Below, piece by piece: positions 1 through 64,000 of a DNA stretch of 64,000 nucleotides (within the stretch, counting starts at the first letter, position 1; each line of letters begins with the position of its first letter). The position numbers and the translations under genes were made by a program. A model generated the notes under the pieces. The model was not told where the DNA came from and did not search any database. It saw only the letters and a program-made list of their open reading frames with translations. The stretch is taken from positions 1 to 64,000 of the forward strand of contig JAUCBJ010004986.1 of the NCBI GenBank assembly GCA_032718475.1, written 5' to 3'. The DNA comes from Nemertoderma westbladi. Lineage: Eukaryota > Animalia > Xenacoelomorpha.

Positions 1-3000
1 AACATTGTGTGATCGTGGCGTTTATTTAATCATACAAGTAGGTAGGTAGACAAACATTGTGTGATCGTGGCGTTTATTTAATCATAAGTGGGATAACAAA
101 CATTGTGTGATCGTGGCGTTTATTTAATCATACAAGTGGGTAGACAAACATTGTGTGATCGTGGCGTTTATTTAATCATACAAGTAGGTAGGTAGACAAA
201 CATTGTGTGATGGTGGCGTTTATTTAATCATACAAGTGGGTAGACAAACATTGTGTGATCGTGGCGTTTATTTAATCATAAGTGGGATAACAAACATTGT
301 GTGATCGTGGTGTTTATTTAATCATACAAGTGGGTAGACAAACATTGTGTGATCGTGGCGTTTATTTAATCATACAAGTGGGTAGGTAGACAAACATTGT
401 GTGATCGTGGCGTTTATTTAATCATACAAGTAGGTAGGTAGACAAACATTGTGTGATCGTGGCGTTTATTTAATCATAAGTGGGATAACAAACATTGTGT
501 GATCGTGGTGTTTATTTAATCATACAAGTGGGTAGATAAACATTGTGTGATCGTGGCGTTTATTTAATCATACAAGTGGGTAGGTAGACAAACATTGTGT
601 GATCGTGGCGTTTATTTAATCATAAGTGGGATAACAAACATTGTGTGATCGTGGTGTTTATTTAATCATACAAGTGGGTAGGTAGACAAACATTGTGTGA
701 TCGTGGCGTTTATTTAATCATACAAGTGGGTAGATAAACATTGTGTGATCGTGGCGTTTATTTAATCATACAAGTGGGTAGGTAGACAAACATTGTGTGA
801 TCGTGGCGTTTATTTAATCATACAAGTGGGTAGGTAGACAAACATTGTGTGATCGTGGAGTTTATTTAATCATACAAGTAGGTAGGTAGACAAACATTGT
901 GTGATCGTGGCGTTTATTTAATCATAAGTGGGATAACAAACATTGTGTGATCGTGGTGTTTATTTAATCATACAAGTGGGTAGACAAACATTGTGTGATC
1001 GTGGCGTTTATTTAATCATACAAGTAGGTAGGTAGACAAACATTGTGTGATCGTGGCGTTTATTTAATCATAAGTGGGATAACAAACATTGTGTGATCGT
1101 GGTGTTTATTTAATCATACAAGTGGGTAGGTAGACAAACATTGTGTGATCGTGGCGTTTATTTAATCATACAAGTGGGTAGGTAGACAAACATTGTGTGA
1201 TCGTGGCGTTTATTTAATCATACAAGTGGGTAGATAAACATTGTGTGATCGTGGCGTTTATTTAATCATACAAGTGGGTAGGTAGACAAACATTGTGTGA
1301 TCGTGGCGTTTATTTAATCATACAAGTGGGTAGGTAGACAAACATTGTGTGATCGTGGCGTTTATTTAATCATACAAGTGGGTAGACAAACATTGTGTGA
1401 TCGTGGCGTTTATTTAATCATAAGTGGGATAACAAACATTGTGTGATCGTGGCGTTTATTTAATCATACAAGTGGGTAGGTAGACAAACATTGTGTGATC
1501 GTGGCGTTTATTTAATCATACAAGTGGGTAGGTAGACAAACATTGTGTGATCGTGGCGTTTATTTAATCATACAAGTAGGTAGGTAGACAAACATTGTGT
1601 GATCGTGGCGTTTATTTAATCATACAAGTAGGTAGACAAACATTGTGTGATCGTGGCGTTTATTTAATCATACAAGTGGGTAGGTAGACAAACATTGTGT
1701 GATCGTGGCGTTTATTTAATCATACAAGTAGGTAGGTAGACAAACATTGTGTGATCGTGGCGTTTATTTAATCATACAAGTAGGTAGACAAACATTGTGT
1801 GATCGTGGCGTTTATTTAATCATACAAGTGGGTAGGTAGACAAACATTGTGTGATCGTGGCGTTTATTTAATCATACAAGTGGGTAGGTAGACAAACATT
1901 GTGTGATCGTGGCGTTTATTTAATCATACAAGTGGGTAGGTAGACAAACATTGTGTGATCGTGGTGTTTATTTAATCATAAGTGGGATAACAAACATTGT
2001 GTGATCGTGGTGTTTATTTAATCATACAAGTGGGTAGGTAGACAAACATTGTGTGATCGTGGCGTTTATTTAATCATACAAGTAGGTAGGTAGACAAACA
2101 TTGTGTGATCGTGGCGTTTATTTAATCATAAGTGGGATAACAAACATTGTGTGATCGTGGTGTTTATTTAATCATACAAGTGGGTAGACAAACATTGTGT
2201 GATCGTGGTGTTTATTTAATCATACAAGTAGGTAGACAAACATTGTGTGATCGTGGCGTTTATTTAATCATACAAGTGGGTAGGTAGACAAACATTGTGT
2301 GATCGTGGCGTTTATTTAATCATACAAGTAGGTAGACAAACATTGTGTGATCGTGGCGTTTATTTAATCATACAAGTGGGTAGGTAGACAAACATTGTGT
2401 GATCGTGGCGTTTATTTAATCATACAAGTGGGTAGGTAGACAAACATTGTGTGATCGTGGCGTTTATTTAATCATACAAGTAGGTAGACAAACATTGTGT
2501 GATCGTGGCGTTTATTTAATCATACAAGTGGGTAGGTAGACAAACATTGTGTGATCGTGGCGTTTATTTAATCATACAAGTGGGTAGGTAGACAAACATT
2601 GTGTGATCGTGGCGTTTATTTAATCATACAAGTGGGTAGGTAGACAAACATTGTGTGATCGTGGCGTTTATTTAATCATACAAGTAGGTAGACAAACATT
2701 GTGTGATCGTGGCGTTTATTTAATCATACAAGTAGGTAGACAAACATTGTGTGATCGTGGCGTTTATTTAATCATACAAGTGGGTAGGTAGACAAACATT
2801 GTGTGATCGTGGCGTTTATTTAATCATACAAGTGGGTAGGTAGACAAACATTGTGTGATCGTGGTGTTTATTTAATCATACAAGTGGGTAGGTAGACAAA
2901 CATTGTGTGATCGTGGCGTTTATTTAATCATCAAGTGGGATAACAAACATTGTGTGATCGTGGCGTTTATTTAATCATACAAGTGGGTAGGTAGACAAAC

Positions 3001-6000
3001 ATTGTGTGATCGTGGCGTTTATTTAATCATACAAGTGGGTAGGTAGACAAACATTGTGTGATCGTGGCGTTTATTTAATCATACAAGTGAGTAGGTAGAC
3101 AAACATTGTGTGATCGTGGCGTTTATTTAATCATACAAGTGGGTAGGTAGACAAACATTGTGTGATCGTGGCGTTTATTTAATCATACAAGTGGGTAGGT
3201 AGACAAACATTGTGTGATCGTGGCGTTTATTTAATCATACAAGTGGGTAGGTAGACAAACATTGTGTGATCGTGGCGTTTATTTAATCATAAGTGGGATA
3301 ACAAACATTGTGTGATCGTGGCGTTTATTTAATCATACAAGTGGGTAGGTAGACAAACATTGTGTGATCGTGGCGTTTATTTAATCATACAAGTGGGTAG
3401 GTAGCAAACATTGTGTGATCGTGGCGTTTATTTAATCATACAAGTAGGTAGGTAGACAAACATTGTGTGATCGTGGCGTTTATTTAATCATACAAGTAGG
3501 TAGGTAGACAAACATTGTGTGATCGTGGCGTTTATTTAATCATACAAGTGGGTAGACAAACATTGTGTGATCGTGGCGTTTATTTAATCATACAAGTAGG
3601 TAGGTAGACAAACATTGTGTGATCGTGGCGTTTATTTAATCATAAGTGGGATAACAAACATTGTGTGATCGTGGTGTTTATTTAATCATACAAGTGGGTA
3701 TACAAACATTGTGTGATCGTGGCGTTTATTTAATCATACAAGTAGGTAGGTAGACAAACATTGTGTGATCGTGGCGTTTATTTAATCATAAGTGGGATAA
3801 CAAACATTGTGTGATCGTGGTGTTTATTTAATCATACAAGTGGGTATACAAACATTGTGTGATCGTGGCGTTTATTTAATCATACAAGTAGGTAGGTAGA
3901 CAAACATTGTGTGATCGTGGCGTTTATTTAATCATACAAGTGGGTAGGTAGACAAACATTGTGTGATCGTGGCGTTTATTTAATCATACAAGTGGGTATA
4001 CAAACATTGTGTGATCGTGGCGTTTATTTAATCATACAAGTAGGTAGGTAGACAAACATTGTGTGATCGTGGCGTTTATTTAATCATACAAGTAGGTAGG
4101 TAGACAAACATTGTGTGATCGTGGCGTTTATTTAATCATACAAGTGGGTAGACAAACATTGTGTGATCGTGGCGTTTATTTAATCATACAAGTGGGTAGG
4201 TAGACAAACATTGTGTGATCGTGGCGTTTATTTAATCATACAAGTGGGTAGGTAGACAAACATTGTGTGATCGTGGCGTTTATTTAATCATACAAGTGGG
4301 TAGGTAGACAAACATTGTGTGATCGTGGCGTTTATTTAATCATACAAGTGGGTAGGTAGACAAACATTGTGTGATCGTGGCGTTTATTTAATCATACAAG
4401 TGGGTAGGTAGACAAACATTGTGTGATCGTGGCGTTTATTTAATCATACAAGTGGGTAGGTAGACAAACATTGTGTGATCGTGGCGTTTATTTAATCATA
4501 CAAGTGGGTAGGTAGACAAACATTGTGTGATCGTGGCGTTTATTTAATCATACAAGTGGGTAGACAAACATTGTGTGATCGTGGCGTTTATTTAATCATA
4601 CAAGTGGGTAGGTAGACAAACATTGTGTGATCGTGGCGTTTATTTAATCATACAAGTGGGTAGGTAGACAAACATTGTGTGATCGTGGCGTTTATTTAAT
4701 CATACAAGTGGGTAGGTAGACAAACATTGTGTGATCGTGGCGTTTATTTAATCATACAAGTGGGTAGGTAGACAAACATTGTGTGATCGTGGCGTTTATT
4801 TAATCATACAAGTGGGTAGGTAGACAAACATTGTGTGATCGTGGCGTTTATTTAATCATACAAGTGGGTAGGTAGACAAACATTGTGTGATCGTGGCGTT
4901 TATTTAATCATACAAGTGGGTAGGTAGACAAACATTGTGTGATCGTGGCGTTTATTTAATCATACAAGTGGGTAGGTAGACAAACATTGTGTGATCGTGG
5001 CGTTTATTTAATCATACAAGTGGGTAGGTAGACAAACATTGTGTGATCGTGGCGTTTATTTAATCATACAAGTGGGTAGGTAGACAAACATTGTGTGATC
5101 GTGGCGTTTATTTAATCATACAAGTGGGTAGGTAGACAAACATTGTGTGATCGTGGCGTTTATTTAATCATACAAGTGGGTAGGTAGACAAACATTGTGT
5201 GATCGTGGCGTTTATTTAATCATACAAGTGGGTAGGTAGACAAACATTGTGTGATCGTGGCGTTTATTTAATCATACAAGTGGGTAGGTAGACAAACATT
5301 GTGTGATCGTGGCGTTTATTTAATCATACAAGTGGGTAGGTAGACAAACATTGTGTGATCGTGGCGTTTATTTAATCATACAAGTGGGTAGGTAGACAAA
5401 CATTGTGTGATCGTGGCGTTTATTTAATCATACAAGTGGGTAGGTAGACAAACATTGTGTGATCGTGGCGTTTATTTAATCATACAAGTGGGTAGGTAGA
5501 CAAACATTGTGTGATCGTGGCGTTTATTTAATCATACAAGTGGGTAGGTAGACAAACATTGTGTGATCGTGGCGTTTATTTAATCATACAAGTGGGTAGG
5601 TAGACAAACATTGTGTGATCGTGGCGTTTATTTAATCATACAAGTGGGTAGGTAGACAAACATTGTGTGATCGTGGCGTTTATTTAATCATACAAGTGGG
5701 TAGGTAGACAAACATTGTGTGATCGTGGCGTTTATTTAATCATACAAGTGGGTAGGTAGACAAACATTGTGTGATCGTGGCGTTTATTTAATCATACAAG
5801 TGGGTAGGTAGACAAACATTGTGTGATCGTGGCGTTTATTTAATCATACAAGTGGGTAGGTAGACAAACATTGTGTGATCGTGGCGTTTATTTAATCATA
5901 CAAGTGGGTAGGTAGACAAACATTGTGTGATCGTGGCGTTTATTTAATCATACAAGTGGGTAGGTAGACAAACATTGTGTGATCGTGGCGTTTATTTAAT

Positions 6001-9000
6001 CATACAAGTGGGTAGGTAGACAAACATTGTGTGATCGTGGCGTTTATTTAATCATACAAGTGAGGTAGACAAACATTGTGTGATCGTGGCGTTTATTTAA
6101 TCATACAAGTGGGTAGGTAGACAAACATTGTGTGATCGTGGCGTTTATTTAATCATACAAGTGGGTAGGTAGACAAACATTGTGTGATCGTGGCGTTTAT
6201 TTAATCATACAAGTGGGTAGGTAGACAAACATTGTGTGATCGTGGCGTTTATTTAATCATACAAGTGGGTAGGTAGACAAACATTGTGTGATCGTGGCGT
6301 TTATTTAATCATACAAGTGGGTAGGTAGACAAACATTGTGTGATCGTGGCGTTTATTTAATCATACAAGTGGGTAGGTAGACAAACATTGTGTGATCGTG
6401 GCGTTTATTTAATCATACAAGTGGGTAGACAAACATTGTGTGATCGTGGCGTTTATTTAATCATACAAGTGGGTAGGTAGACAAACATTGTGTGATCGTG
6501 GCGTTTATTTAATCATACAAGTGGGTGGTAGACAAACATTGTGTGATCGTGGCGTTTATTTAATCATACAAGTGGGTAGGTAGACAAACATTGTGTGATC
6601 GTGGCGTTTATTTAATCATACAAGTGGGAGGTAGACAAACATTGTGTGATCGTGGCGTTTATTTAATCATACAAGTGGGTAGGTAGACAAACATTGTGTG
6701 ATCGTGGCGTTTATTTAATCATAAGTGGGATAACAAACATTGTGTGATCGTGGCGTTTATTTAATCATACAAGTGGGTAGGTAGACAAACATTGTGTGAT
6801 CGTGGCGTTTATTTAATCATACAAGTGGGTAGGTAGACAAACATTGTGTGATCGTGGCGTTTATTTAATCATACAAGTGGGATAGACAAACATTGTGTGA
6901 TCGTGGCGTTTATTTAATCATACAAGTGGGTAGTAGACAAACATTGTGTGATCGTGGCGTTTATTTAATCATACAAGTGGGTAGGTAGACAAACATTGTG
7001 TGATCGTGGCGTTTATTTAATCATACAAGTGGGTAGGTAGACAAACATTGTGTGATCGTGGCGTTTATTTAATCATACAAGTGGGTAGGTAGACAAACAT
7101 TGTGTGATCGTGGCGTTTATTTAATCATACAAGTGGGTAGGTAGACAAACATTGTGTGATCGTGGCGTTTATTTAATCATACAAGTGGGTAGGTAGACAA
7201 ACATTGTGTGATCGTGGCGTTTATTTAATCATACAAGTGGGTAGGTAGACAAACATTGTGTGATCGTGGCGTTTATTTAATCATACAAGTGGGTAGGTAG
7301 ACAAACATTGTGTGATCGTGGCGTTTATTTAATCATACAAGTGGGTAGGTAGACAAACATTGTGTGATCGTGGCGTTTATTTAATCATACAAGTGGGTAG
7401 GTAGACAAACATTGTGTGATCGTGGCGTTTATTTAATCATACAAGTGGGTAGGTAGACAAACATTGTGTGATCGTGGCGTTTATTTAATCATACAAGTGG
7501 GTAGGTAGACAAACATTGTGTGATCGTGGCGTTTATTTAATCATACAAGTAGGATAGACAAACATTGTGTGATCGTGGCGTTTATTTAATCATACAAGTG
7601 GGTAGGTAGACAAACATTGTGTGATCGTGGCGTTTATTTAATCATACAAGTGGGTAGGTAGACAAACATTGTGTGATCGTGGCGTTTATTTAATCATACA
7701 AGTGGGTAGGTAGACAAACATTGTGTGATCGTGGCGTTTATTTAATCATACAAGTGGGTAGGTAGACAAACATTGTGTGATCGTGGCGTTTATTTAATCA
7801 TACAAGTGGGTAGGTAGACAAACATTGTGTGATCGTGGCGTTTATTTAATCATACAAGTGGGTAGGTAGACAAACATTGTGTGATCGTGGCGTTTATTTA
7901 ATCATACAAGTGGGTAGACAAACATTGTGTGATCGTGGCGTTTATTTAATCATACAAGTGGGTAGGTAGACAAACATTGTGTGATCGTGGCGTTTATTTA
8001 ATCATACAAGTGGGTAGACAAACATTGTGTGATCGTGGCGTTTATTTAATCATACAAGTGGGTAGGTAGACAAACATTGTGTGATCGTGGCGTTTATTTA
8101 ATCATACAAGTGGGTAGACAAACATTGTGTGATCGTGGCGTTTATTTAATCATACAAGTGGGTAGGTAGACAAACATTGTGTGATCGTGGCGTTTATTTA
8201 ATCATACAAGTGGGTAGACAAACATTGTGTGATCGTGGCGTTTATTTAATCATACAAGTGGGTAGACAAACATTGTGTGATCGTGGCGTTTATTTAATCA
8301 TACAAGTGGGTAGGTAGACAAACATTGTGTGATCGTGGCGTTTATTTAATCATACAAGTGGGTAGACAAACATTGTGTGATCGTGGCGTTTATTTAATCA
8401 TACAAGTGGGTAGGTAGACAAACATTGTGTGATCGTGGCGTTTATTTAATCATACAAGTGGGTAGACAAACATTGTGTGATCGTGGCGTTTATTTAATCA
8501 TACAAGTGGGTAGACAAACATTGTGTGATCGTGGCGTTTATTTAATCATACAAGTGGGTAGACAAACATTGTGTGATCGTGGCGTTTATTTAATCATACA
8601 AGTGAGGTAGACAAACATTGTGTGATCGTGGCGTTTATTTAATCATACAAGTGGGTAGGTAGACAAACATTGTGTGATCGTGGCGTTTATTTAATCATAC
8701 AAGTGGGTAGGTAGACAAACATTGTGTGATCGTGGCGTTTATTTAATCATACAAGTAGGTAGACAAACATTGTGTGATCGTGGCGTTTATTTAATCATAC
8801 AAGTAGGTAGACAAACATTGTGTGATCGTGGCGTTTATTTAATCATACAAGTGGGTAGACAAACATTGTGTGATCGTGGCGTTTATTTAATCATACAAGT
8901 GGGTAGGTAGACAAACATTGTGTGATCGTGGCGTTTATTTAATCATACAAGTGGGTAGACAAACATTGTGTGATCGTGGCGTTTATTTAATCATACAAGT

Positions 9001-12000
9001 GGGTAGACAAACATTGTGTGATCGTGGCGTTTATTTAATCATACAAGTAGGTAGGTAGACAAACATTGTGTGATCGTGGCGTTTATTTAATCATACAAGG
9101 TAGGTAGACAAACATTGTGTGATCGTGGCGTTTATTTAATCATACAAGTGGGTAGACAAACATTGTGTGATCGTGGCGTTTATTTAATCATACAAGTGGG
9201 TAGGTAGACAAACATTGTGTGATCGTGGCGTTTATTTAATCATACAAGTGGGTAGACAAACATTGTGTGATCGTGGCGTTTATTTAATCATACAAGTGGG
9301 TAGGTAGACAAACATTGTGTGATCGTGGCGTTTATTTAATCATACAAGTGGGTAGGTAGACAAACATTGTGTGATCGTGGCGTTTATTTAATCATACAAG
9401 TGGGTAGGTAGACAAACATTGTGTGATCGTGGCGTTTATTTAATCATACAAGTGGGTAGGTAGACAAACATTGTGTGATCGTGGCGTTTATTTAATCATA
9501 CAAGTGGGTAGACAAACATTGTGTGATCGTGGCGTTTATTTAATCATACAAGTGGGTAGGTAGACAAACATTGTGTGATCGTGGCGTTTATTTAATCATA
9601 CAAGTGGGTAGGTAGACAAACATTGTGTGATCGTGGCGTTTATTTAATCATAAGTGGGATAACAAACATTGTGTGATCGTGGCGTTTATTTAATCATACA
9701 AGTGGGTAGGTAGACAAACATTGTGTGATCGTGGCGTTTATTTAATCATACAAGTGGGTAGGTAGACAAACATTGTGTGATCGTGGCGTTTATTTAATCA
9801 TACAAGTGGGTAGGTAGACAAACATTGTGTGATCGTGGCGTTTATTTAATCATACAAGTGGGTAGGTAGACAAACATTGTGTGATCGTGGCGTTTATTTA
9901 ATCATACAAGTGGGTAGACAAACATTGTGTGATCGTGGCGTTTATTTAATCATACAAGTGGGTAGGTAGACAAACATTGTGTGATCGTGGCGTTTATTTA
10001 ATCATACAAGTGGGTAGGTAGACAAACATTGTGTGATCGTGGCGTTTATTTAATCATACAAGTGGGTAGGTAGACAAACATTGTGTGATCGTGGCGTTTA
10101 TTTAATCATACAAGTGGGAGTAGACAAACATTGTGTGATCGTGGCGTTTATTTAATCATACAAGTGGGTAGGTAGACAAACATTGTGTGATCGTGGCGTT
10201 TATTTAATCATACAAGTGGGTAGGTAGACAAACATTGTGTGATCGTGGCGTTTATTTAATCATACAAGTGGGTAGGTAGACAAACATTGTGTGATCGTGG
10301 CGTTTATTTAATCATACAAGTGGGTAGGTAGACAAACATTGTGTGATCGTGGCGTTTATTTAATCATACAAGTGGGTAGGTAGACAAACATTGTGTGATC
10401 GTGGCGTTTATTTAATCATACAAGTGGGTAGGTAGACAAACATTGTGTGATCGTGGCGTTTATTTAATCATACAAGTGGGTAGGTAGACAAACATTGTGT
10501 GATCGTGGCGTTTATTTAATCATACAAGTGGGTAGGTAGACAAACATTGTGTGATCGTGGCGTTTATTTAATCATACAAGTGGGTAGGTAGACAAACATT
10601 GTGTGATCGTGGCGTTTATTTAATCATACAAGTGGGTAGGTAGACAAACATTGTGTGATCGTGGCGTTTATTTAATCATACAAGTGGGTAGGTAGACAAA
10701 CATTGTGTGATCGTGGCGTTTATTTAATCATACAAGTGGGTAGGTAGACAAACATTGTGTGATCGTGGCGTTTATTTAATCATACAAGTGGGTAGGTAGA
10801 CAAACATTGTGTGATCGTGGCGTTTATTTAATCATACAAGTGGTAGGTAGACAAACATTGTGTGATCGTGGCGTTTATTTAATCATACAAGTGGGTAGGT
10901 AGACAAACATTGTGTGATCGTGGCGTTTATTTAATCATACAAGTGGGTAGGTAGACAAACATTGTGTGATCGTGGCGTTTATTTAATCATACAAGTGGGT
11001 AGGTAGACAAACATTGTGTGATCGTGGCGTTTATTTAATCATACAAGTGGGTAGGTAGACAAACATTGTGTGATCGTGGCGTTTATTTAATCATACAAGT
11101 GGGTAGGTAGACAAACATTGTGTGATCGTGGCGTTTATTTAATCATACAAGTGGGTAGGTAGACAAACATTGTGTGATCGTGGCGTTTATTTAATCATAC
11201 AAGTGGGTAGGTAGACAAACATTGTGTGATCGTGGCGTTTATTTAATCATACAAGTGGGTAGGTAGACAAACATTGTGTGATCGTGGCGTTTATTTAATC
11301 ATACAAGTGGGTAGGTAGACAAACATTGTGTGATCGTGGCGTTTATTTAATCATACAAGTGGGTAGGTAGACAAACATTGTGTGATCGTGGCGTTTATTT
11401 AATCATACAAGTGGGTAGGTAGACAAACATTGTGTGATCGTGGCGTTTATTTAATCATACAAGTGGGTAGGTAGACAAACATTGTGTGATCGTGGCGTTT
11501 ATTTAATCATACAAGTGGGTAGACAAACATTGTGTGATCGTGGCGTTTATTTAATCATACAAGTGGGTAGACAAACATTGTGTGATCGTGGCGTTTATTT
11601 AATCATACAAGTGAGGTAGACAAACATTGTGTGATCGTGGCGTTTATTTAATCATACAAGTGGGTAGGTAGACAAACATTGTGTGATCGTGGCGTTTATT
11701 TAATCATACAAGTGGGTAGACAAACATTGTGTGATCGTGGCGTTTATTTAATCATACAAGTGGGTAGGTAGACAAACATTGTGTGATCGTGGCGTTTATT
11801 TAATCATACAAGTGGGTAGACAAACATTGTGTGATCGTGGCGTTTATTTAATCATACAAGTGTGGTAGACAAACATTGTGTGATCGTGGCGTTTATTTAA
11901 TCATACAAGTGGTGTAGACAAACATTGTGTGATCGTGGCGTTTATTTAATCATACAAGTGGGTAGACAAACATTGTGTGATCGTGGCGTTTATTTAATCA

Positions 12001-15000
12001 TACAAGTGGGTAGACAAACATTGTGTGATCGTGGCGTTTATTTAATCATACAAGTGGGTAGACAAACATTGTGTGATCGTGGCGTTTATTTAATCATACA
12101 AGTAGGTAGACAAACATTGTGTGATCGTGGCGTTTATTTAATCATACAAGTAGGTAGGTAGACAAACATTGTGTGATCGTGGCGTTTATTTAATCATACA
12201 AGTGGGTAGGTAGACAAACATTGTGTGATCGTGGCGTTTATTTAATCATACAAGTGGGTAGACAAACATTGTGTGATCGTGGCGTTTATTTAATCATACA
12301 AGTAGGTAGGTAGACAAACATTGTGTGATCGTGGCGTTTATTTAATCATACAAGTGGGTAGACAAACATTGTGTGATCGTGGCGTTTATTTAATCATACA
12401 AGTGGGTAGACAAACATTGTGTGATCGTGGCGTTTATTTAATCATACAAGTGGGTAGGTAGACAAACATTGTGTGATCGTGGCGTTTATTTAATCATACA
12501 AGTGGGTAGGTAGACAAACATTGTGTGATCGTGGCGTTTATTTAATCATACAAGTGGGTAGGTAGACAAACATTGTGTGATCGTGGCGTTTATTTAATCA
12601 TACAAGTGGGTAGACAAACATTGTGTGATCGTGGCGTTTATTTAATCATACAAGTGGGTAGGTAGACAAACATTGTGTGATCGTGGCGTTTATTTAATCA
12701 TACAAGTGGGTAGGTAGACAAACATTGTGTGATCGTGGCGTTTATTTAATCATACAAGGTAGGATAGACAAACATTGTGTGATCGTGGCGTTTATTTAAT
12801 CATACAAGTGGGTAGGTAGACAAACATTGTGTGATCGTGGCGTTTATTTAATCATACAAGTGGGTAGGTAGACAAACATTGTGTGATCGTGGCGTTTATT
12901 TAATCATACAAGTGGGTAGGTAGACAAACATTGTGTGATCGTGGCGTTTATTTAATCATACAAGTGGGTAGGTAGACAAACATTGTGTGATCGTGGCGTT
13001 TATTTAATCATACAAGTGGGTAGACAAACATTGTGTGATCGTGGCGTTTATTTAATCATACAAGTGGGTAGGTAGACAAACATTGTGTGATCGTGGCGTT
13101 TATTTAATCATACAAGTGGGTAGGTAGACAAACATTGTGTGATCGTGGCGTTTATTTAATCATACAAGTGGGTAGGTAGACAAACATTGTGTGATCGTGG
13201 CGTTTATTTAATCATAAGTAGGATAACAAACATTGTGTGATCGTGGTGTTTATTTAATCATACAAGTAGGTAGACAAACATTGTGTGATCGTGGCGTTTA
13301 TTTAATCATAAAAGTGGGTAGGTAGACAAACATTGTGTGATCGTGGCGTTTATTTAATCATACAAGTGGGTAGGTAGACAAACATTGTGTGATCGTGGCG
13401 TTTATTTAATCATACAAGTGGGTAGGTAGACAAACATTGTGTGATCGTGGCGTTTATTTAATCATACAAGTGGGTAGGTAGACAAACATTGTGTGATCGT
13501 GGCGTTTATTTAATCATACAAGTAGGTAGGTAGACAAACATTGTGTGATCGTGTCGTTTATTTAATCATACAAGTGGGTAGGTAGACAAACATTGTGTGA
13601 TCGTGGCGTTTATTTAATCATACAAGTGGGTAGGTAGACAAACATTGTGTGATCGTGGCGTTTATTTAATCATACAAGTGGGTAGGTAGACAAACATTGT
13701 GTGATCGTGGCGTTTATTTAATCATACAAGTGGGTAGGTAGACAAACATTGTGTGATCGTGGCGTTTATTTAATCATACAAGTGGGTAGGTAGACAAACA
13801 TTGTGTGATCGTGGCGTTTATTTAATCATACAAGTGGGTAGGTAGACAAACATTGTGTGATCGTGGCGTTTATTTAATCATAAGTAGGATAACAAACATT
13901 GTGTGATCGTGGTGTTTATTTAATCATACAAGTGGGTAGGTAGACAAACATTGTGTGATCGCGGCGTTTATTTAATCATACAAGTGGGTAGGTAGACAAA
14001 CATTGTGTGATCGTGGCGTTTATTTAATCATACAAGTGGGTAGGTAGACAAACATTGTGTGATCGTGGCGTTTATTTAATCATACAAGTGGGTAGGTAGA
14101 CAAACATTGTGTGATCGTGGCGTTTATTTAATCATACAAGTGGGTAGGTAGACAAACATTGTGTGATCGTGGCGTTTATTTAATCATACAAGTGGGTAGG
14201 TAGACAAACATTGTGTGATCGTGGCGTTTATTTAATCATACAAGTGGGTAGGTAGACAAACATTGTGTGATCGTAGCGTTTATTTAATCATACAAGTGGG
14301 TAGGTAGACAAACATTGTGTGATCGTGGCGTTTATTTAATCATACAAGTGGGTAGGTAGACAAACATTGTGTGATCGTGGCGTTTATTTAATCATACAAG
14401 TGGGTAGGTAGACAAACATTGTGTGATCGTGGCGTTTATTTAATCATACAAGTGGGTAGGTAGACAAACATTGTGTGATCGTGGCGTTTATTTAATCATA
14501 CAAGTGGGTAGGTAGACAAACATTGTGTGATCGTGGCGTTTATTTAATCATAAGTAGGATAACAAACATTGTGTGATCGTGGTGTTTATTTAATCATACA
14601 AGTGGGTAGGTAGACAAACATTGTGTGATCGTGGCGTTTATTTATTCATACAAGTGGGTAGGTAGACAAACATTGTGTGATCGTGGCATTTATTTAATCA
14701 TACAAGTGGGTAGGTAGACAAACATTGTGTGATCGTGGCGTTTATTTAATCATACAAGTGGGTAGGTAGACAAACATTGTGTGATCGTGGCGTTTATTTA
14801 ATCATACAAGTGGGTAGGTAGACAAACATTGTGTGATCGTGGCGTTTATTTAATCATACAAGTGGGTAGGTAGACAAACATTGTGTGATCGTAGCGTTTA
14901 TTTAATCATACAAGTGGGTAGGTAGACAAACATTGTGTGATCGTGGCGTTTATTTAATCATACAAGTGGGTAGGTAGACAAACATTGTGTGATCGTGGCG

Positions 15001-17332: not shown

Positions 17333-17420
17333 TAATAATAAATTACCATAAGCAAAATATAGCATATAGGTAAGTATTAGGGGTCTACACTGGCTGAATA
17401 TTGTAATGAAAACGCTGGAT

Positions 17421-17460
17421 TTAGTGAACGTTTTCGCCCTACCGGGCTACGTCAGACCTA
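17421..17460 (-). ncRNA. Minimal type I hammerhead-ribozyme-like motif in the PLE 3' end
   Basis: Minus strand reads UAGGU-CUGAC-GUA-GCCC-GGUA-GGGC-GAAA-ACGU-UC-ACUAA: CUGA and GAAA boxes, 4-bp stem II, palindromic AACGUU in place of stem III, UC cleavage site. Extra U in the CUGANGA box and a weak stem I. Confidence 0.55.
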
Positions 17461-17798
17461 TTATATTAATAAAGCATAATGGAGTAATTAAATTCAATTC
17501 GAAATTCCCGCCACCTAAATAAAGCACTAATAGAATAGATAGTTCTAAGTAGGTCCTATATGTAATATAATATAAACAAAGTCGAAAACAAAATCAAAAA
17601 ACAAAAGTCTCCAGAATAAAATAGATTTTTATCCAAACTTACATAAAGTAAAAATCTAATCGTGTCTCTAAGTAGCTCTCGTACTATTATTATAAAAACA
17701 AAAACCTCCAAACGCTCAGTTTCAACTCCGTATAACAAGTAAGGTAATATACAGTCAAACACACATTAGCAACCCCCATATGCGTACTATCCATTCCC

Positions 17799-21960: not shown

Positions 21961-22103
21961 GAAACCAAAGATATTAAATATGTGAAGTCAGTATAATATG
22001 CAAAGTATACGTTGTAAAATAAAGAATAATTATTATTATTTTTATTTTTATTTTAGGAGAGTCCATACTTTCATTAGATTAGACCCTTATTAATGTGCAG
22101 TTA

Positions 22104-46800: not shown

Positions 46801-49431
46801 CAAGTGGGTAGACAAACATTGTGTGATCGTGGCGTTTATTTATTCATACAAGTGGGTAGGTAGACAAACATTGTGTGATCGTGGCGTTTATTTAATCATA
46901 TAAGTGGGTAGGTAGACAAACATTGTGTGATCGTGGCGTTTATTTAATCATACAAGTGGGTAGACAAACATTGTGTGATCGTGGCGTTTATTTATTCATA
47001 CAAGTGGGTAGGTAGACAAACATTGTGTGATCGTGGCGTTTATTTAATCATACAAGTGGGTAGGTAGACAAACATTGTGTGATCGTGGCGTTTATTTAAT
47101 CATACAAGTGGGTAGACAAACATTGTGTGATCGTGGCGTTTATTAAATCATACAAGTGGGTAGACAAACATTGTGTGATCGTGGCGTTTATTTAATCATA
47201 CAAGTGGGTAGGTAGACAAACATTGTGTGATCGTGGCGTTTATTTAATCATACAAGTGGGTAGACAAACATTGTGTGATCGTGGCGTTTATTTAATCATG
47301 CAAGTGGGTAGGTAGACAAACATTGTGTGATCGTGGCGTTTATTTAATCATACAAGTGGGTAGGTAGACAAACATTGTGTGATCCTGGCGTTTATTTAAT
47401 CATACAAGTGGGTAGACAAACATTGTGTGATCGTGGCGTTTATTTAATCATACAAGTGGGTAGGTAGACAAACATTGTGTGATCGTGGCGTTTATTTAAT
47501 CATACAAGTGGGTAGGTAGACAAACATTGTGTGATCGTGGCGTTTATTTAATCATACAAGTGGGTAGGTAGACAAACATTGTGTGATCGTAGCGTTTATT
47601 TAATCATACAAGTGGGTAGACAAACATTGTGTGATCGTGGCGTTTATTTAATCATATAAGTGGGTAGGTAGACAAACATTGTGTGATCGTGGCGTTTATT
47701 TAATCATACAAGTGGGTAGGTAGACAAACATTGTGTGATCGTGGCGTTTATTTAATCATACAAGTGGGTAGACAAACATTGTGTGATCGTGGCGTTTATT
47801 TATTCATACAAGTGGGTAGGTAGACAAACATTGTGTGATCGTGGCGTTTATTTAATCATATAAGTGGGTAGGTAGACAAACATTGTGTGATCGTGGCGTT
47901 TATTTAATCATACAAGTGGGTAGACAAACATTGTGTGATCGTGGCGTTTATTTATTCATACAAGTGGGTAGGTAGACAAACATTGTGTGATCGTGGCGTT
48001 TATTTAATCATACAAGTGGGTAGGTAGACAAACATTGTGTGATCGTGGCGTTTATTTAATCATACAAGTGGGTAGACAAACATTGTGTGATCGTGGCGTT
48101 TATTAAATCATACAAGTGGGTAGGTAGACAAACATTGTGTGATCGTGGCGTTTATTTAATCATACAAGTGGGTAGGTAGACAAACATTGTGTGATCCTGG
48201 CGTTTATTTAATCATACAAGTGGGTAGACAAACATTGTGTGATCGTGGCGTTTATTTAATCATACAAGTGGGTAGGTAGACAAACATTGTGTGATCGTGG
48301 CGTTTATTTAATCATACAAGTGGGTAGGTAGACAAACATTGTGTGATCGTGGCGTTTATTTAATCATACAAGTGGGTAGGTAGACAAACATTGTGTGATC
48401 GTGGCGTTTATTTAATCATACAAGTGGGTAGGTAGACAAACATTGTGTGATCGTGGCGTTTATTTAATCATACAAGTGGGTAGGTAGACAAACATTGTGT
48501 GATCGTGGCGTTTATTTAATCATACAAGTGGGTAGGTAGACAAACATTGTGTGATCGTGGCGTTTATTCAATCATACAAGTGGGTAGACAAACATTGTGT
48601 GATCGTGGCGTTTATTTAATCATACAAGTGGGTAGACAAACATTGTGTGATCGTGGCGTTTATTTAATCATACAAGTGGGTAGACAAACATTGTGTGATT
48701 GTGGCGTTTATTTAATCATACAAGTGGGTAGGTAGACAAACATTGTGATCGTGGCGTTTATTTAATCATACAAGTAGGTAGGTAGACAAACATTGTGTGA
48801 TAGTGGAGTTTATTTAATCATACAAGTGGGTAGGTAGACAAACATTGTGTGATCGTGGCGTTTATTTAATCATACAAGTGGGTAGACAAACATTGTGTGA
48901 TCGTGGCGTTTATTTAATCATACAAGTGGGGAGACAAACATTGTGTGATCGTGGCGTTTATTTAATCATACAAGTGGGTATAGACAAACATTGTGTGATC
49001 GTGGCGTTTATTTAATCATACAAGTGGGTAGGTAGACAAACATTGTGTGATCGTGGCGTTTATTTAATCATACAAGTGGGTAGGTAGACAAACATTGTGT
49101 GATCGTGGCGTTTATTTAATCATACAAGTGGGTAGGTAGACAAACATTGTGTGATCGTGGCGTTTATTTAATCATACAAGTGAGTGCGTAGACAAACATT
49201 GTGTGATCGTGGCGTTTATTTAATCATACAAGTGGGTAGGTAGACAAACATTGTGTGATCGTGGCGTTTATTTAATCATACAAGTGGGTAGGTAGACAAA
49301 CATTGTGTGATCGTGGCGTTTATTTAATCATACAAGTGGGTAGGTAGACAAACATTGTGTGATCGTGGCGTTTATTTAATCATACAAGTGGGTAGGTAGA
49401 CAAACATTGTGTGATCGTGGCGTTTATTTAA
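22848..49431 (+). repeat. 52-bp satellite array, segment 2 (roughly 520 units) with kb-scale block duplications
   Basis: Same unit as segment 1, with regional variant domains (taagtaggataa, gtagttag, gatcatgg/ttactcat, ttattcat). Confidence 0.98.
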
Positions 49432-51051
49432 GGGGGGGGGGGGTTCACTCCCCTTGGAGAGGAATCGGCATATCGGATGCCTGATGTTCCCACATCATCC
49501 ATTTTCTCCAATTTTTTGCACGTTAACCAAGGACATGTGTGTCTTCAATGTCATGATAAAAAAATTTCAGATATTTGATAATCAGACTATGATATTGATT
49601 GATTGATTGGAAATATCGATTGATTTATTGATTGATTAGTTAAATGCTTATAACATTTTACCACATGCATATTTTTGAAAAGTTTTTTTTTATTTTAAAA
49701 GCAGCCGCCTATATGTGTAAAACTTGTAGACAGATTTCCGAAATTTGGTCCAGTTAAAATTTTATTGGCATAATTACACCACTATTGGAAATTAATATCG
49801 CATATTTTCCAATATTTCGTCGATTTTGTGATTGGCACCTTATAACTTGGGAGAGAATCTAAATTTCGAAAATCTGTCTACAACTTATGAAAAGTAACAT
49901 GTCTAGAAGACTGAAACCAAATTTCAGACAAAAAGGTGGAAGATTGACTGAGTTATAAGGTTTTGGAGATGAGGAAAGCCTGAAAAATAAAAAGTCGAGA
50001 AAAACTCAAAAATAGATACAAAATAGCATGACATTTTTTTTTTGATTTTTTTTTCATTTTTTTTTGAATTTGGTTCAAAAAAAACCCTACCCACTTTTAA
50101 CAACCTGTTAAAATAATTTTAGAGTGCTTGCCAAAAAACACTTCGCGCAGCACGTGAACAAATTACATTTTGGCGTATTGATGTGATCGCATACTATTTC
50201 GTCATTTAGTAATAAATAGTCATGGAATAATGAGACAACCTTAAGAAACATTCAAAATTATATAAAAATCTCCACATAATTTTATAATAAGCCTTTACAC
50301 AGAACATTAAGCTTTGCGCAGCACGTGAAACCTTCGCGCAGCACGTGAGACATTTGCGCAGCAGGTGAAGGTTTCACGTAGAACTTAAATTCTTCATAAA
50401 GCACGTTAATTAATCGAGCACCTCGGGAAGCTTTTTGATCAGAATGAGAAGCCTTCACGCGGCACATGAAAAGTTCATGCTGCACATGAAGACTTCGCGC
50501 AGCACGTGAATTATTATCAGAGCCTGCGGAATTAAAAAAAAATAAGTTTATGGTTGTTTCCCAGAATAATTATTACTAGCTATTGTTATATGATGGTTCA
50601 CATTTGTTATTACTAGTAGACAACTAGTCCATTAGACAACTGTTCAATATGTAATACAAAACTCACAAATATCTATTAAATATATATTAATTAAAATTTG
50701 ACGGACATGTTGACAGACAGACAGACATACAAACAGACAGACAAACTGAGAGACAGACTGAGATACAGACATAGTGATTAGATAATTCCAAATATTAAAA
50801 CAGACATCGACATTAAGAAAAATCCTAACAGTAAACATTTCAGATTGCTTATTTTATGCCCTTTTTAATATTTCGATGGACAGACAGACAGACATACAGA
50901 CGGAAAACCAGCCATTACTCGAGAAGTAAAAGAGATCTCGCTAAGCCGTTTCCAGATTTGAAATCCGCATTAAATTCTACTCTAGATGAAATAAAAAAAC
51001 AAAAAATGAAAATTTTGACCTGAGGGGGGGTGTACCCCCCCCCCCCCCCCC
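49432..51051. mobile_element. Non-autonomous TIR DNA transposon (~1.6 kb), TTAA TSD, Kolobok-like
   Basis: ttaa at 49428-49431 and 51052-51055, and the satellite unit resumes in register. Termini poly-G-ttcactcccc and ggggggtgta-poly-C form imperfect inverted repeats. TTAA TSD with 5' purine termini fits Kolobok rather than piggyBac. No transposase ORF. Confidence 0.75.
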
Positions 51052-51213
51052 TTAATCATACAAGTGGGTAGGTAGACAAACATTGTGTGATCGTGGCGTT
51101 TATTTATTCATACAAGTGGGTAGGTAGACAAACATTGTGTGATCGTGGTGTTTATTTATTCATACAAGTGGGTAGGTAGACAAACATTGTGTGATCGTGG
51201 CGAGTAGGTAGAC
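51052..51213 (+). repeat. 52-bp satellite, terminal ~3 units, grading into unique intron
   Basis: Ends ...gatcgtggcgagtaggtagaccaaccaacattatttcg. Confidence 0.92.
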
Positions 51214-51384
51214 CAACCAACATTATTTCGACAATCGTTATCGATTTTCCCCTGGGGATATTCCCTATTAATTTTGTTTCCACCAAAAGTCTGCATATGG
51301 GTTATAAAAAGGAAGATGTTACTTGCCCCGCCAATAATCCTCTGCTTTATTTTAACTAACTCGGGACTTTAAATTACTTTCCAG

Positions 51385-51543
51385 GGATACGACATAACAA
51401 CTTCAGTTCCTGCTTCTAGTATATCAGTAGCCATTGGAGATGAAGCCTGCACCATATATGAAATACAAAATACTAATATTACCTGCAAGCCTAGAAAACC
51501 AGCATACGATTTCACGGTATTTGAACCAAAGAAATCAGTTCAG
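51385..51543 (+). CDS. Internal exon (159 nt, phase 0/0) encoding a membrane-proximal IPT/TIG domain segment of a MET/RON- or plexin-like receptor
   Basis: ttactttccag acceptor, CAG|gtatgt donor. Open frame GYDITTSVPASSISVAIGDEACTIYEIQNTNITCKPRKPAYDFTVFEPKKSVQ has the IPT pattern VxIGxxxC...IxCxP. Confidence 0.8.
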
Positions 51544-51750
51544 GTATGTACGTGTGAGTAATTGGCAGTACTGTAGGTAATGGGTCTATGGTATATAGTT
51601 GGGTCTATCTATATGGATAATTAGTAGGGGCTGTATGGTCCTATAGTTGTCATGGCCATTTTATTGACATATGGTGGTCGGTCAGTAAGGGCTATATTGC
51701 GCTATTCGTTATTGCCCTGATTAACTGAATGTATTGCATCTGTTACTAAG

Positions 51751-51985
51751 GTAACTATTGGTAACCGAGTATACTCCATCGGATCTCTCATCCACTACTG
51801 GGACACTGCAGACGAGACGTGGATGCTAACCGTTGGGGTCCTGTCTGCTTTCGCAATCATCGTCAGTTTCATTGCCGGGGTCGTTTTCTGTAAGAAAACC
51901 AAATGGAGAAGACGAAGAAGGACCCGAACAATATCATCAGCAACCAGTGGAAGTTTCCGATCTCAGAAGTCTGGTCACACAAACA
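51751..51985 (+). CDS. Exon (235 nt, phase 0/1): end of IPT domain, transmembrane helix and basic juxtamembrane segment
   Basis: ttactaag acceptor, ACA|gtgagt donor. Translates VTIGNRVYSIGSLIHYWDTADETWMLTVGVLSAFAIIVSFIAGVVFCKKTKWRRRRR...SQKSGHTN, in frame with the previous exon. Confidence 0.8.
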
Positions 51986-54191
51986 GTGAGTTACTATTAG
52001 TTGTCTATAAGTCTGGTCACACAAACAGTGAGTTACTATTAGTTGTCTATAAGTATGGTCACAGAAACAGTGAGTTACTATTAGTTGTCTATAAGTCTGG
52101 TCACACAAACAGTGAGTTACTATTAGTTGTCTATAAGTCTGGTCACACAAACAGTGAGTTACTATTAGTTGTCTATAAGTCTGGTCACACAAACAGTGAG
52201 TTACTATTAGTTGTCTATAAGTCTGGTCACACAAACAGTGAGTTACTATTAGTTGTCTATAAGTCTGGTCACACAAACAGTGAGTTACTATTAGTTGTCT
52301 ATAAGTATGGTCACACAAACAGTGAGTTACTATTAGTTGTCTATAAGTCTGGTCACACAAACAGTGAGTTACTATTAGTTGTCTATAAGTCTGGTCACAC
52401 AAACAGTGAGTTACTATTAGTTGTCTATAAGTCTGGTCACACAAACAGTGAGTTACTATTAGTTGTCTATATGTCTGGTCACACAAACAGTGAGTTACTA
52501 TTAGTTGTCTCTAAGTCTGGTCACACAAACAGTGAGTTACTATTAGTTGTCTATAAGTCTGGTCACACAAACAGTGAGTTACTATTAGTTGTCTATAAGT
52601 CTGGTCACACAAACAGTGAGTTACTATTAGTTGTCTATAAGTCTGGTCACACAAACAGTGAGTTACTATTAGTTGTCTATATGTCTGGTCACGCAAACAG
52701 TGAGTTACTATTAGTTGTCTATAAGTCTGGTCACACAAACAGTGAGTTACTATTAGTTGTCTATAAGTCTGGTCACACAAACAGTGAGTTTCTATTAGTT
52801 GTCTATAAGTCTGGTCACACAAACAGTGAGTTACTATTAGTTGTCTATAAGTCTGGTCACACAAACAGTGAGTTACTATTAGTTGTCTATAAGTCTGGTC
52901 ACACAAACAGTGAGTTACTATTAGTTGTCTATAAGTCTGGTCACACAAACAGTGAGTTACTATTAGTTGTCTATAAGTCTGGTCACACAAACAGTGAGTT
53001 ACTATTAGTTGTCTATAAGTCTGGTCACACAAACAGTGAGTTAGTATTAGTTGTCTATAAGTCTGGTCACACAAACAGTGAGTTACTATTAGTTGTCTAT
53101 AAGTCTGGTCACACAAACAGTGAGTTACTATTAGTTGTCTATAAGTCTGGTCACACAAACAGTGAGTTACTATTAGTTGTCTATAAGTATGGTCACACAA
53201 ACAGTGAGTTACTATTAGTTGTCTATAAGTCTGGTCACACAAACAGTGAGTTACTATTAGTTGTCTATAAGTCTGGTCACACAAACAGTGAGTTACTATT
53301 AGTTGTCTATAAGTCTGGTCACACAAACAGTGAGTTACTATTAGTTGTCTATAAGTCTGGTCACACAAACAGTGAGTTACTATTAGTTGTCTATAAGTCT
53401 GGTCACACAAACACTGAGTTACTATTAGTTGTCTATAAGTCTGGTCACACAAACAGTGAGTTACTATTAGTTGTCTATAAGTCTGGTCACACAAACAGTG
53501 AGTTACTATTAGTTGTCTATAAGTCTGGTCACACAAACAGTGAGTTACTATTAGTTGTCTATAAGTCTGGTCACACAAACAGTGAGTTACTATTAGTTGT
53601 CTATAAGTCTGGTCACACAAACAGTGAGTTACTATTAGTTGTCTATAAGTCTGGTCACACAAACAGTGAGTTACTATTAGTTGTCTATAAGTCTGGTCAC
53701 ACAAACAGTGAGTTACTATTAGTTGTCTATAAGTCTGGTCACACAAACAGTGAGTTACTATTAGTTGTCTATAAGTCTGGTCACACAAACAGTGAGTTAC
53801 TATTAGTTGTCTATAAGTCTGGTCACACAAACAGTGAGTTACTATTAGTTGTCTATAAGTCTGGTCACACAAACAGTGAGTTACTATTAGTTGTCTATAA
53901 GTCTGGTCACACAAACAGTGAGTTACTATTAGTTGTCTATAAGTCTGGTCACACAAACAGTGAGTTACTATTAGTTGTCTATAAGTCTGGTCACACAAAC
54001 AGTGAGTTACTATTAGTTGTCTATAAGTATGGTCACACAAACAGTGAGTTAGTATTAGTTGTCTATAAGTCTGGTCACACAAACAGTGAGTTAGTATTAG
54101 TTGTCTATAAGTCTGGTCACACAAACAGTGAGTTACTATTAGTTGTCTATATGTCTGGTCACACAAACAGTGAGTTACTATTAGTTGTCTA
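51967..54191 (+). repeat. 42-bp tandem array (~53 copies) of exon end plus GTGAGT donor plus intron start
   Basis: Unit aagtctggtcacacaaaca|gtgagttactattagttgtctat. The first copy overlaps the exon's last 19 nt. Confidence 0.97.
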
Positions 54192-54527
54192 ACATCCGAT
54201 CCTATAAATTTGGTCATATATAGTTAAGATATTAATCATGGCTCATGACTTTAAATATATATCATATTTAAAAACCCCATAAGAACACAATTTAACAACA
54301 ATTCTTAATCTTAATTACATAATAGTGTAAAATTTATATAGAAAGTGATCTATTTTATACGGCTAAGTGGCAGAGTATATATAGACATCCACAGATCCTT
54401 AGTCTTTATAAGGAATAAATACCGTAACGCATCGAAAGGTATTTAATGGGATAAATTAATTTATTATTAATCTACATAACTGTCAATATTAATATTATTA
54501 ATCTAAGTTAGATAAAGTAACTAGTTC

Positions 54528-62640: not shown

Positions 62641-62699
62641 TGCGTAGAACATAGTCAACAACAATTATGAACAAGAATGGTGCAAGTGTGTCTCCTGGG

Positions 62700-63700: not shown

Positions 63701-63852
63701 CATGTAGTACCTTTAAATGCTCATCGTTTTTTTGTTAATGAAATTGTTTAATTAATTAAATCCTTGGATTATACTTTGTAAAAATTTTGTTTCCTTTTGT
63801 AATTGTGTTAGAAATTTAGATAGGCTGTGTGTTAAATTCCTTATCTATTCAG

Positions 63853-63870
63853 TTCTGACTGTGGAAGCCG
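63853..63870 (+). CDS. Putative 18-nt microexon (phase 1/1) of the receptor gene
   Basis: ttccttatctattcag acceptor and CCG|gtaagt donor. Joining to the exon ending at 51985 gives an open frame ...GHTN-ILTVEA. Confidence 0.6.
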
Positions 63871-64000
63871 GTAAGTGTACCGGTAATAATCTTCTGTGGA
63901 AGCCGGTAAGTGTACCGGTAATAATCTTCTGTGGAATCCGGTAAGTGTACCGGTAATAATCTTCTGTGGAAGCCGGTAAGTGTACCGGTAATAATCTTCT
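63859..64000 (+). repeat. 35-bp tandem array (at least 4 copies, runs off the window) of microexon end plus GTAAGT donor plus intron start
   Basis: Unit ctgtggaagccg|gtaagtgtaccggtaataatctt at 63859, 63894, 63929 and 63964. Confidence 0.93.

What the first reader, a model, noticed from the sequence alone, without database searches (positions are those of the whole stretch)
1..64000. Splice-donor-anchored satellites: three unrelated arrays each amplify an exon end plus 5' splice site of the same gene
Seen: the 42-bp unit is 19 nt of exon + GTGAGT-led 23 nt, starting inside the TM exon. The 35-bp unit is 12 nt of a putative microexon + GTAAGT-led 23 nt. The 52-bp unit is ...GGCGTTTATTTAATCATACAA + GTGGGT/GTAGGT. 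The three units share no obvious sequence except a donor in the host sense orientation. Inference: three of four consecutive donors of one gene have seeded arrays (only the 207-nt intron at 51544-51750 has none). That suggests a process that repeatedly amplifies DNA at 5' splice junctions, for example transcription/splicing-coupled breaks, R-loops or small-circle rolling amplification, and so inflates introns. I do not know of a described class like this, but I could not search the literature.
Basis: partly seen in the sequence, partly recalled or inferred. Interest (0 to 1): 0.92.

Follow-up and report, generated by a model that had tools for sequence, protein, structure and literature searches.

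The report
Satellite-scale repeated splice donors ("mirages")
In an animal receptor gene, short pieces covering a predicted exon end and its splice signal are copied head-to-tail at one exon end for certain and likely at three of four in a row, one of them about 870 times or more; this is an unusually large example of a repeat type already known from lancelet and human genes, where the spare signals are mostly ignored.

Summary
The three arrays are real: 52 bp (873 units, 44 kb, start off-window), 42 bp (53 copies) and 35 bp (4.1 copies, runs off the end). The 42-bp array starts 19 nt inside the predicted transmembrane exon. The 35-bp array starts inside the best microexon candidate of its intron. 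The 52-bp unit likely carries the previous exon's end: its peptide supplies the IPT/TIG strand just before the next exon's conserved Gly (P about 0.005-0.06, depending on the test).

The class is not new. It matches amphioxus 'mirage' minisatellites and donor-spanning human VNTRs (F7, IFI6, CBS, LMNB2, PDGF), and this scan noted it before in many other genomes.

New here: satellite scale (published cases I read have 3-26 copies), an intron likely inflated from about 0.2 kb to over 51 kb, and a degenerate 17/22 relic of the exon end behind the 42-bp array, which suggests the same donor amplified twice. Local homology at array ends and multi-unit block duplications fit ordinary minisatellite turnover. 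Nothing here tests a splicing-coupled or rolling-circle origin. No genome and no RNA run were available, so junction use and genome-wide enrichment remain untested.

The parts
1..17332 (+). 52-bp array, part 1 (start off-window). Unit = about 37 nt inferred upstream-exon end + about 15 nt intron led by GTGGGT/GTAGGT; 48- and 46-bp length variants
   Evidence: exon identity inferred
17333..22847 (-). Insertion into the array with a 10-nt target duplication; GIY-YIG remnant at 22050-22838 (Penelope-like, label recalled); carries a 154-bp satellite at about 17797-21950
   Evidence: (GIY-YIG E=1.5e-7)
22848..49431 (+). 52-bp array, part 2, with block duplications of 22-33 units at lags of 43, 87 and 116 units
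   Evidence: longest run in 20 shuffles: 9
49432..51051 (.). 1.6-kb insertion with G/C-rich terminal inverted repeats, flanked by TTAA on both sides (non-autonomous DNA transposon, inferred)
51052..51202 (+). 52-bp array, last 2.9 copies
51203..51384 (+). Residual unique intron (182 nt) ending in the acceptor; it begins with a partial unit end, then a 6-nt word that also starts the unit
51385..51543 (+). Predicted exon E1 (159 nt, phase 0-0), IPT/TIG domain starting at the conserved Gly; its donor has no array
   Evidence: Pfam TIG E=0.0073, below cut-off; Atlas TIG lead at 0.88; best representative hit is a 9-TIG protein, E=6.2e-9; alignment
51544..51750 (+). 207-nt intron without array (internal control)
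51751..51985 (+). Predicted exon E2 (235 nt, phase 0-1): end of TIG, hydrophobic transmembrane segment, basic stop-transfer run
51967..54191 (+). 42-bp array, 53 copies; first copy starts 19 nt inside E2; in frame and stop-free (14 aa per copy)
54195..54216 (+). Degenerate relic of the E2 end (17 of 22 nt match 51956-51977), reaching 11 nt further into the exon than the present unit; likely remnant of an older 55-bp duplication
   Evidence: 0 of 3000 background windows reach its score; best match in the non-array DNA scanned
63853..63870 (+). Predicted 18-nt microexon E3 (phase 1-1)
   Evidence: best of 7 candidates, donor matches 9 of 11 U1 positions
63859..64000 (+). 35-bp array, 4.1 copies visible; first copy starts inside E3; unit holds an internal 7-nt direct repeat and a 6-bp inverted repeat across the donor

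Best explanation
These are likely 'mirage'-type minisatellites: tandem arrays whose unit spans a predicted exon end and its 5' splice site, one of which has grown to satellite size. Each likely began as a short tandem duplication across the donor, helped by nearby short homology. It would be tolerated because the spliceosome keeps using the first donor, so all later copies fall in the intron and leave the protein unchanged. Slippage and unequal exchange then likely expanded and homogenised the copies, and transposons later inserted into the largest array. Shown: unit anatomy, copy numbers, block duplications, insertions with target duplications, the relic copy. Inferred: exon status, the order of events, first-donor use.
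For: The first copy of the 42-bp array is continuous with the E2 open frame. The E1 start aligns, without any satellite sequence, on the near-invariant TIG Gly. In that register the CAA|GT junction is the top of all 52 unit positions for 7, 10 and 12 residues; 25, 113 and 156 of 5094 open background peptides score as high. Plexin-A4's membrane-proximal IPT has the same G-x-x-I/L-I-L/I-K/Q-G pattern there. Homology at array ends: the 17/22 relic behind the 42-bp array, and the 42-bp junction equals the flank with 13 nt removed between two CTA words. Block duplications of 22-33 units in the 52-bp array exceed the shuffled maximum of 9. Ebner et al. describe the same anatomy, degenerate edge units and normal splicing in amphioxus. 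In human F7 only the most upstream donor is used, and its donor has the same GTGGGT as the 52-bp unit.
Against: No RNA or genome-wide data. The free-register HMM test of the 52-bp join is weak: 39 and 62 of 1000 background peptides, and 47 and 67 of 1000 shuffles, score as high; with 7 free registers, 136 and 575 of 5094 do. The profile was built from bacterial TIG domains. The 6-nt homology at the 52-bp array end has P about 0.07, and the wider unit-versus-flank alignment is at background. Plain tolerance does not by itself explain 3 of 4 donors and 0 of 3 acceptors unless ancestral introns were short. First-donor use was shown in mammalian cells with 5-9 copies; in IFI6 and CBS two downstream copies are also used.
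Confidence: 0.7

Rival explanations
1. A transcription- or splicing-coupled process (polymerase pausing, R-loops or breaks at 5' splice sites, or small-circle amplification) seeds duplications preferentially at donors in this lineage. Expansion afterwards could still be ordinary.
For: 3 of 4 donors and 0 of 3 acceptors carry arrays; uniform-seeding probabilities are 5e-3 for 200-nt introns and 1e-4 to 3e-6 with this window's residual introns. The relic suggests the E2 donor amplified twice. Ebner et al. call the origin of mirages unclear.
Against: No shared signature: G-skew 0.40/0.07/0.25, and only the 35-bp unit folds well; intron reach is about 15, 22-23 and 23 nt. A first duplication itself favours re-amplification at the same place. 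Amphioxus mirages occur at both boundaries. The window was selected after the fact from a very large scan.
Confidence: 0.15
2. Only the 42-bp array is truly donor-anchored; the donor-like motifs of the 52-bp and/or 35-bp units are coincidence.
For: The 52-bp start is off-window, and E3 has no RNA or homology support. An unrelated 154-bp satellite in the window also carries GTAAGT. Lenient join tests give P 0.03-0.11.
Against: The one position of 52 that best completes the TIG strand is exactly the GT junction, in the phase E1 needs. E3 is frame-preserving, has the best donor of 7 candidates and sits behind a pyrimidine tract.
Confidence: 0.1
3. The arrays are functional: downstream donors of the in-frame 42-bp array give receptors with juxtamembrane tails longer by multiples of 14 residues.
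For: The 42-bp unit is a multiple of 3 and all 53 copies are stop-free, giving an 823-aa read-through frame. Two downstream copies are used in human IFI6 and CBS.
Against: An in-frame open unit is expected about 18% of the time. 11 of 53 copies carry amino-acid-changing variants. The 52- and 35-bp units are not multiples of 3.
Confidence: 0.04
4. The array lengths are assembly artefacts.
For: No reads could be laid on the window.
Against: 93 distinct unit variants among 868 in a structured order; two insertions with clean target duplications; no N in the window.
Confidence: 0.01

Closest known systems
Amphioxus 'mirage' minisatellites (Adh3, globins BflGb6/BflGb9, troponin C, PGBD5). PMC3087553: passages, section 16 and reference-list passages read. 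PMC3902484: one passage read. Canestro et al. 2002 (PMC117041): not held, known only through these papers.
   Same: Tandem unit spans an exon-intron boundary and repeats the splice signal; unit sizes 10-72 bp at Adh3 cover 35-52 bp; edge units escape homogenisation, like the relic here.
   Different: Copy number: 3-6 for BflGb6 and 3 for one PGBD5 repeat, against at least 873 here. Amphioxus cases hit both boundaries; here only donors. Normal splicing was tested there, not here.
Human donor-spanning VNTRs: F7 IVS7 (37 bp, 5-9 copies), IFI6/6-16 (25 pseudo-sites), CBS IVS13 (15-20), LMNB2 (100 bp, 10-15), PDGF intron 4 (81 bp, 16-18). PMC1557585: abstract, Introduction and Discussion read.
   Same: First monomer spans the exon-intron junction and the donor is reiterated in the intron; F7's donor begins with the same six intron bases as the 52-bp unit.
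   Different: One array per gene and at most 26 donors in those cases; here likely three arrays in one gene, the largest over 30 times longer in copies and split by transposons.
Internal tandem repeats at exon-intron boundaries in human segmental duplications (PMC2812944: passages read)
   Same: Variable tandem repeats at exon-intron boundaries, found in a survey of duplicated human genes.
   Different: There the repeats can create new introns or be retained in exons; no new intron is evident here.
Satellite-filled giant introns of Drosophila Y-linked fertility genes (PMC11207136: search listing only)
   Same: Intron size driven by tandem repeats and transposons.
   Different: To my recall those satellites are simple repeats not derived from the gene's own splice junction; not checked in the text.

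Membership tests
Mirage / donor-spanning minisatellite | Head-to-tail array of a short unit | tested here: met
   periods 52, 42, 35
Mirage / donor-spanning minisatellite | Unit spans an exon-intron boundary (42-bp array) | tested here: met
   First copy starts 19 nt inside the E2 frame; the exon itself is predicted, not read-confirmed
Mirage / donor-spanning minisatellite | Unit spans an exon-intron boundary (52-bp and 35-bp arrays) | tested here: inconclusive
   52-bp: supported by the TIG join, P about 0.005-0.06, start off-window. 35-bp: best of 7 exon candidates
Mirage / donor-spanning minisatellite | Copies repeat the splice signal in sense orientation | tested here: met
   52 of 53 copies keep GTGAGT; 729 of 873 carry GTGGGT or GTAGGT; the 35-bp copies carry GTAAGT
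Mirage / donor-spanning minisatellite | Mature mRNA uses the authentic site; copies are mostly silent | not testable with these tools
   No RNA run was listed
Mirage / donor-spanning minisatellite | Length instability between alleles or cells | not testable with these tools
   One sequence only; block duplications show past turnover
Intron gain by tandem genomic duplication (Rogers model, as cited in PMC3087553) | Duplicated AG/GT proto-splice site creates a new intron between copies | tested here: not met
   The copies lie inside introns with their own unique acceptors at 51384 and 63852; no acceptor use within the arrays is evident
Dispersed or transposon-borne satellite family | Unit recurs at other loci | tested here: inconclusive
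   No 12-mer of any unit outside its array within the window; no genome held
MET/RON/plexin-type IPT receptor (host gene) | Membrane-proximal IPT/TIG domain followed by one transmembrane helix | tested here: met
   the Pfam score is below the curated cut-off
MET/RON/plexin-type IPT receptor (host gene) | Sema domain and kinase or GAP domain | not testable with these tools
   These would lie outside the window; no orthologue was found

The most novel reading that the evidence does not exclude
In this animal lineage, 5' splice junctions are genome-wide hot spots of recurrent tandem duplication, seeded by a transcription- or splicing-coupled process, and the resulting satellite-scale arrays are a main engine of intron gigantism: a 0.2-kb intron becomes over 51 kb filled with hundreds of copies of its own donor that the spliceosome must ignore.
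Probability: 0.15. Interest if true: 0.8.

Novelty: new variant of a known kind. Interest (0 to 1): 0.36.

Why it matters
As it stands this is an extreme example of a known oddity. It extends donor-spanning repeats from tens of copies to at least 870 and shows that they can become satellite DNA and transposon landing sites inside a gene. It offers a natural stress test of first-donor choice, shown in F7 with 5-9 copies, against hundreds of identical decoys. The relic copy gives a traceable two-step origin for one array, where Ebner et al. call the origin of mirages unclear. If a genome-wide donor bias were shown, it would link splicing signals to the birth of satellite DNA and to intron growth.

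Tried and rejected
No whole genome is held, so the genome-wide intersection could not be run. No RNA holder was listed; this is a blank, not evidence, and no reads were laid.

Homologue searches for the host gene found no orthologue. Word-index search with E1 against longer proteins: 8 candidates, none at E<=10. Representative search: 2 hits, one bacterial TIG-repeat protein and one FG-GAP repeat protein that I treat as a repeat artefact. A PDB search with E1 gave only weak hits, MET among them at E=1.2. Reading through the 207-nt intron with X at stops gave spurious armadillo hits from the intron.

Placing the organism by the nested NAPRT gene failed: at most about 63% identity to the listed proteins and a long unresolved branch among animals in a quick, unfinished tree of 44 rows (40 of 120 hits plus 3 prokaryote loci and the query).

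A fixed '23 nt of intron' rule was rejected (about 15 nt in the 52-bp unit). A shared R-loop skew or hairpin signature was not found. No relic of the E1 end and no wider homology at the 52-bp array end. Rfam found nothing at E<=1 in 17200-23000.

The TIG profile came from 114 domains in 38 prokaryote loci; one wrong-strand row was dropped and the test repeated, and one wrong-strand row (L013) remained among the 18 rows of alignment A1. Amino-acid background frequencies, the U1 consensus and the element labels 'Penelope-like', 'Kolobok-like' and 'hammerhead-like' are recalled.

Literature: 9 searches listed no paper whose title or abstract start reports a junction-spanning array of hundreds of copies or a genome-wide test of donor bias. 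The library lacks most subscription papers, and I opened no supplements; those of PMC3087553 and PMC2812944 could hold larger cases.
Full report
What is in the window. Most of it is one 52-bp tandem array: 873 units by anchor count, 44,067 bases, starting before position 1 and ending at 51202. Two insertions interrupt it. One (17333-22847) has a 10-nt target duplication, a GIY-YIG remnant (Pfam E=1.5e-7) and its own 154-bp satellite. The other (49432-51051) has G/C-rich inverted ends and TTAA on both sides. After 182 nt of unique DNA come two predicted exons, E1 (51385-51543) and E2 (51751-51985), a 42-bp array (51967-54191, 53 copies), 9.7 kb of LINE fragments with a nested intronless NAPRT gene, a predicted 18-nt exon E3 (63853-63870) and a 35-bp array that runs off the end.

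The host gene. E1 is an IPT/TIG fragment. Pfam gives E=0.0073, below its cut-off; the Atlas gives TIG leads at 0.88; the best hit among 1.84 billion representatives is a nine-TIG protein at E=6.2e-9. E2 carries a hydrophobic segment followed by a basic run. The three exons join in one open frame. This is the architecture of MET/RON/plexin-type receptors, but no orthologue was found. The nested NAPRT is animal-type, about 62% identical to its best hits, and sits on a long unresolved branch, so the organism is likely an animal from a poorly sampled lineage.

Are the arrays anchored on donors? The 42-bp array plainly is: its first copy begins 19 nt inside E2, and 52 of 53 copies keep GTGAGT. The 35-bp array begins 12 nt before the E3 donor. 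E3 is the best of 7 candidates passing one acceptor/donor/open-frame rule in that intron, matches 9 of 11 U1 positions and preserves frame, but it has no RNA or homology support.

The 52-bp array's start cannot be seen, so I tested its peptide. One frame of the unit is open up to CAA|GT and ends in GVYLIIQ. E1 alone aligns with its first residue on the near-invariant TIG Gly. In that register the GT junction scores highest of all 52 unit positions against a TIG profile, and 25 of 5094 (7 residues), 113 (10) and 156 (12) background peptides score as well. Plexin-A4's last IPT shows the same pattern before this Gly. Looser tests are weaker: 39-62 of 1000 with a free HMM alignment, and 136-575 of 5094 with seven registers allowed. 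I take the anchoring as likely, not shown.

A donor hexamer alone proves little. It occurs in 2-3% of random 35-52-mers, and the unrelated 154-bp satellite carries GTAAGT too.

How the arrays likely arose. Three bases after the 42-bp array lies a 17-of-22 match to the E2 end that reaches 11 nt further into the exon than the present unit. None of 3000 background windows reaches its score, and it is the best match in the non-array DNA scanned; I first saw it by eye, so the test is after the fact. It implies an older 55-bp duplication across the same donor. Removing 13 nt between two CTA words of that flank gives the present unit junction. The 52-bp array ends next to a 6-nt word that also starts its unit (P about 0.07), with no wider homology. 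The 35-bp unit has internal direct and inverted repeats. Inside the 52-bp array, identical strings of 22-33 units recur at lags of 43, 87 and 116 units, against a shuffled maximum of 9. All of this fits homology-guided duplication followed by slippage and unequal exchange. It does not exclude rolling-circle steps, but nothing points to them. Sense-strand G-skew (0.40, 0.07, 0.25) and folding differ among the units, which gives no common R-loop or hairpin signature.

Is 3 of 4 donors more than chance? With seeds placed uniformly, the probability is 1e-4 to 3e-6 using this window's residual introns, but 5e-3 if introns were about 200 nt when seeded. Two introns here support short ancestors: 207 nt, and about 197 nt once array and insertions are removed. 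The window was also picked from a very large scan. A real seeding bias is possible but untested, because no genome and no RNA run were available.

What is known. Ebner et al. 2010 (PMC3087553; passages and section 16 read) describe tandem duplications of exon-intron boundaries in amphioxus, named mirages by Canestro et al. 2002 (not held). They report units of 10-72 bp at Adh3, both boundary types, degenerate edge units, normal splicing and an unclear origin. PMC3902484 (one passage) adds troponin C and PGBD5. Borensztajn et al. 2006 (PMC1557585; abstract, Introduction, Discussion) list five human donor-spanning minisatellites of 5-26 donors and show that F7 uses only the most upstream site. 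PMC2812944 (passages) surveys repeats at exon-intron boundaries in duplicated human genes. Earlier notes of this scan report the same class in urchins, cartilaginous fishes, worms and other invertebrates, including arrays at or near seven borders of one Ret gene and arrays of about 140 and 286 copies; these are unchecked AI notes. My mirage reading came from recall and was checked, before those notes; the notes led me to the F7 paper.

Verdict. What stands out is scale (at least 873 copies against 3-26 in the papers I read), three likely cases in four successive donors, and a relic that records two rounds at one donor. In nine searches no listing reported an array of this size or a genome-wide test of donor bias, but the library is incomplete and I opened no supplements. 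I class it as a new variant of a known kind, interest 0.36. The splicing-coupled hot-spot reading has probability about 0.15 and would deserve 0.8.

Noticed in passing
window 54528-56153, - strand: Intact, intronless NAPRT gene (541 aa) nested antisense in the E2-E3 intron; animal-type (about 62% to best hits), third-position GC 67% against 41% in the host exons. Possibly a domesticated retrocopy; origin unresolved.
   Followed up: partly
window 17333-22847: Penelope-like insertion (GIY-YIG remnant, - strand) carrying about 4 kb of a 154-bp satellite with 40-bp sub-duplications; most units contain GTAAGT on the + strand.
   Followed up: partly
window 17385-17475, - strand: Hammerhead-like core near the element's end (label recalled); folds with z=-2.0, no Rfam hit.
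   Followed up: partly
window 49432-51051: 1.6-kb element with poly-G/poly-C inverted ends and TTAA target duplication (Kolobok-like, label recalled), with internal 20-bp and GACA repeats. Both insertions hit the same AT-rich spot of the 52-bp unit.
   Followed up: partly
window 51721-54192, + strand: Retention of the E2 intron would give an 823-aa open frame with 53 copies of a 14-aa repeat after the transmembrane segment; gene predictors may annotate it as protein.
   Followed up: partly
window 58816-59377 and 63121-63687: Two 97-98% identical 3' fragments of one LINE family, and an older endonuclease/RT LINE on the - strand between about 58164 and 61482.
   Followed up: no
window 56704-57694: About 1-kb element with long imperfect terminal inverted repeats.
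   Followed up: no
window 62634-62774: 141-nt near-perfect palindrome (69-nt arms, 93%) at the 5' end of a LINE fragment.
   Followed up: no
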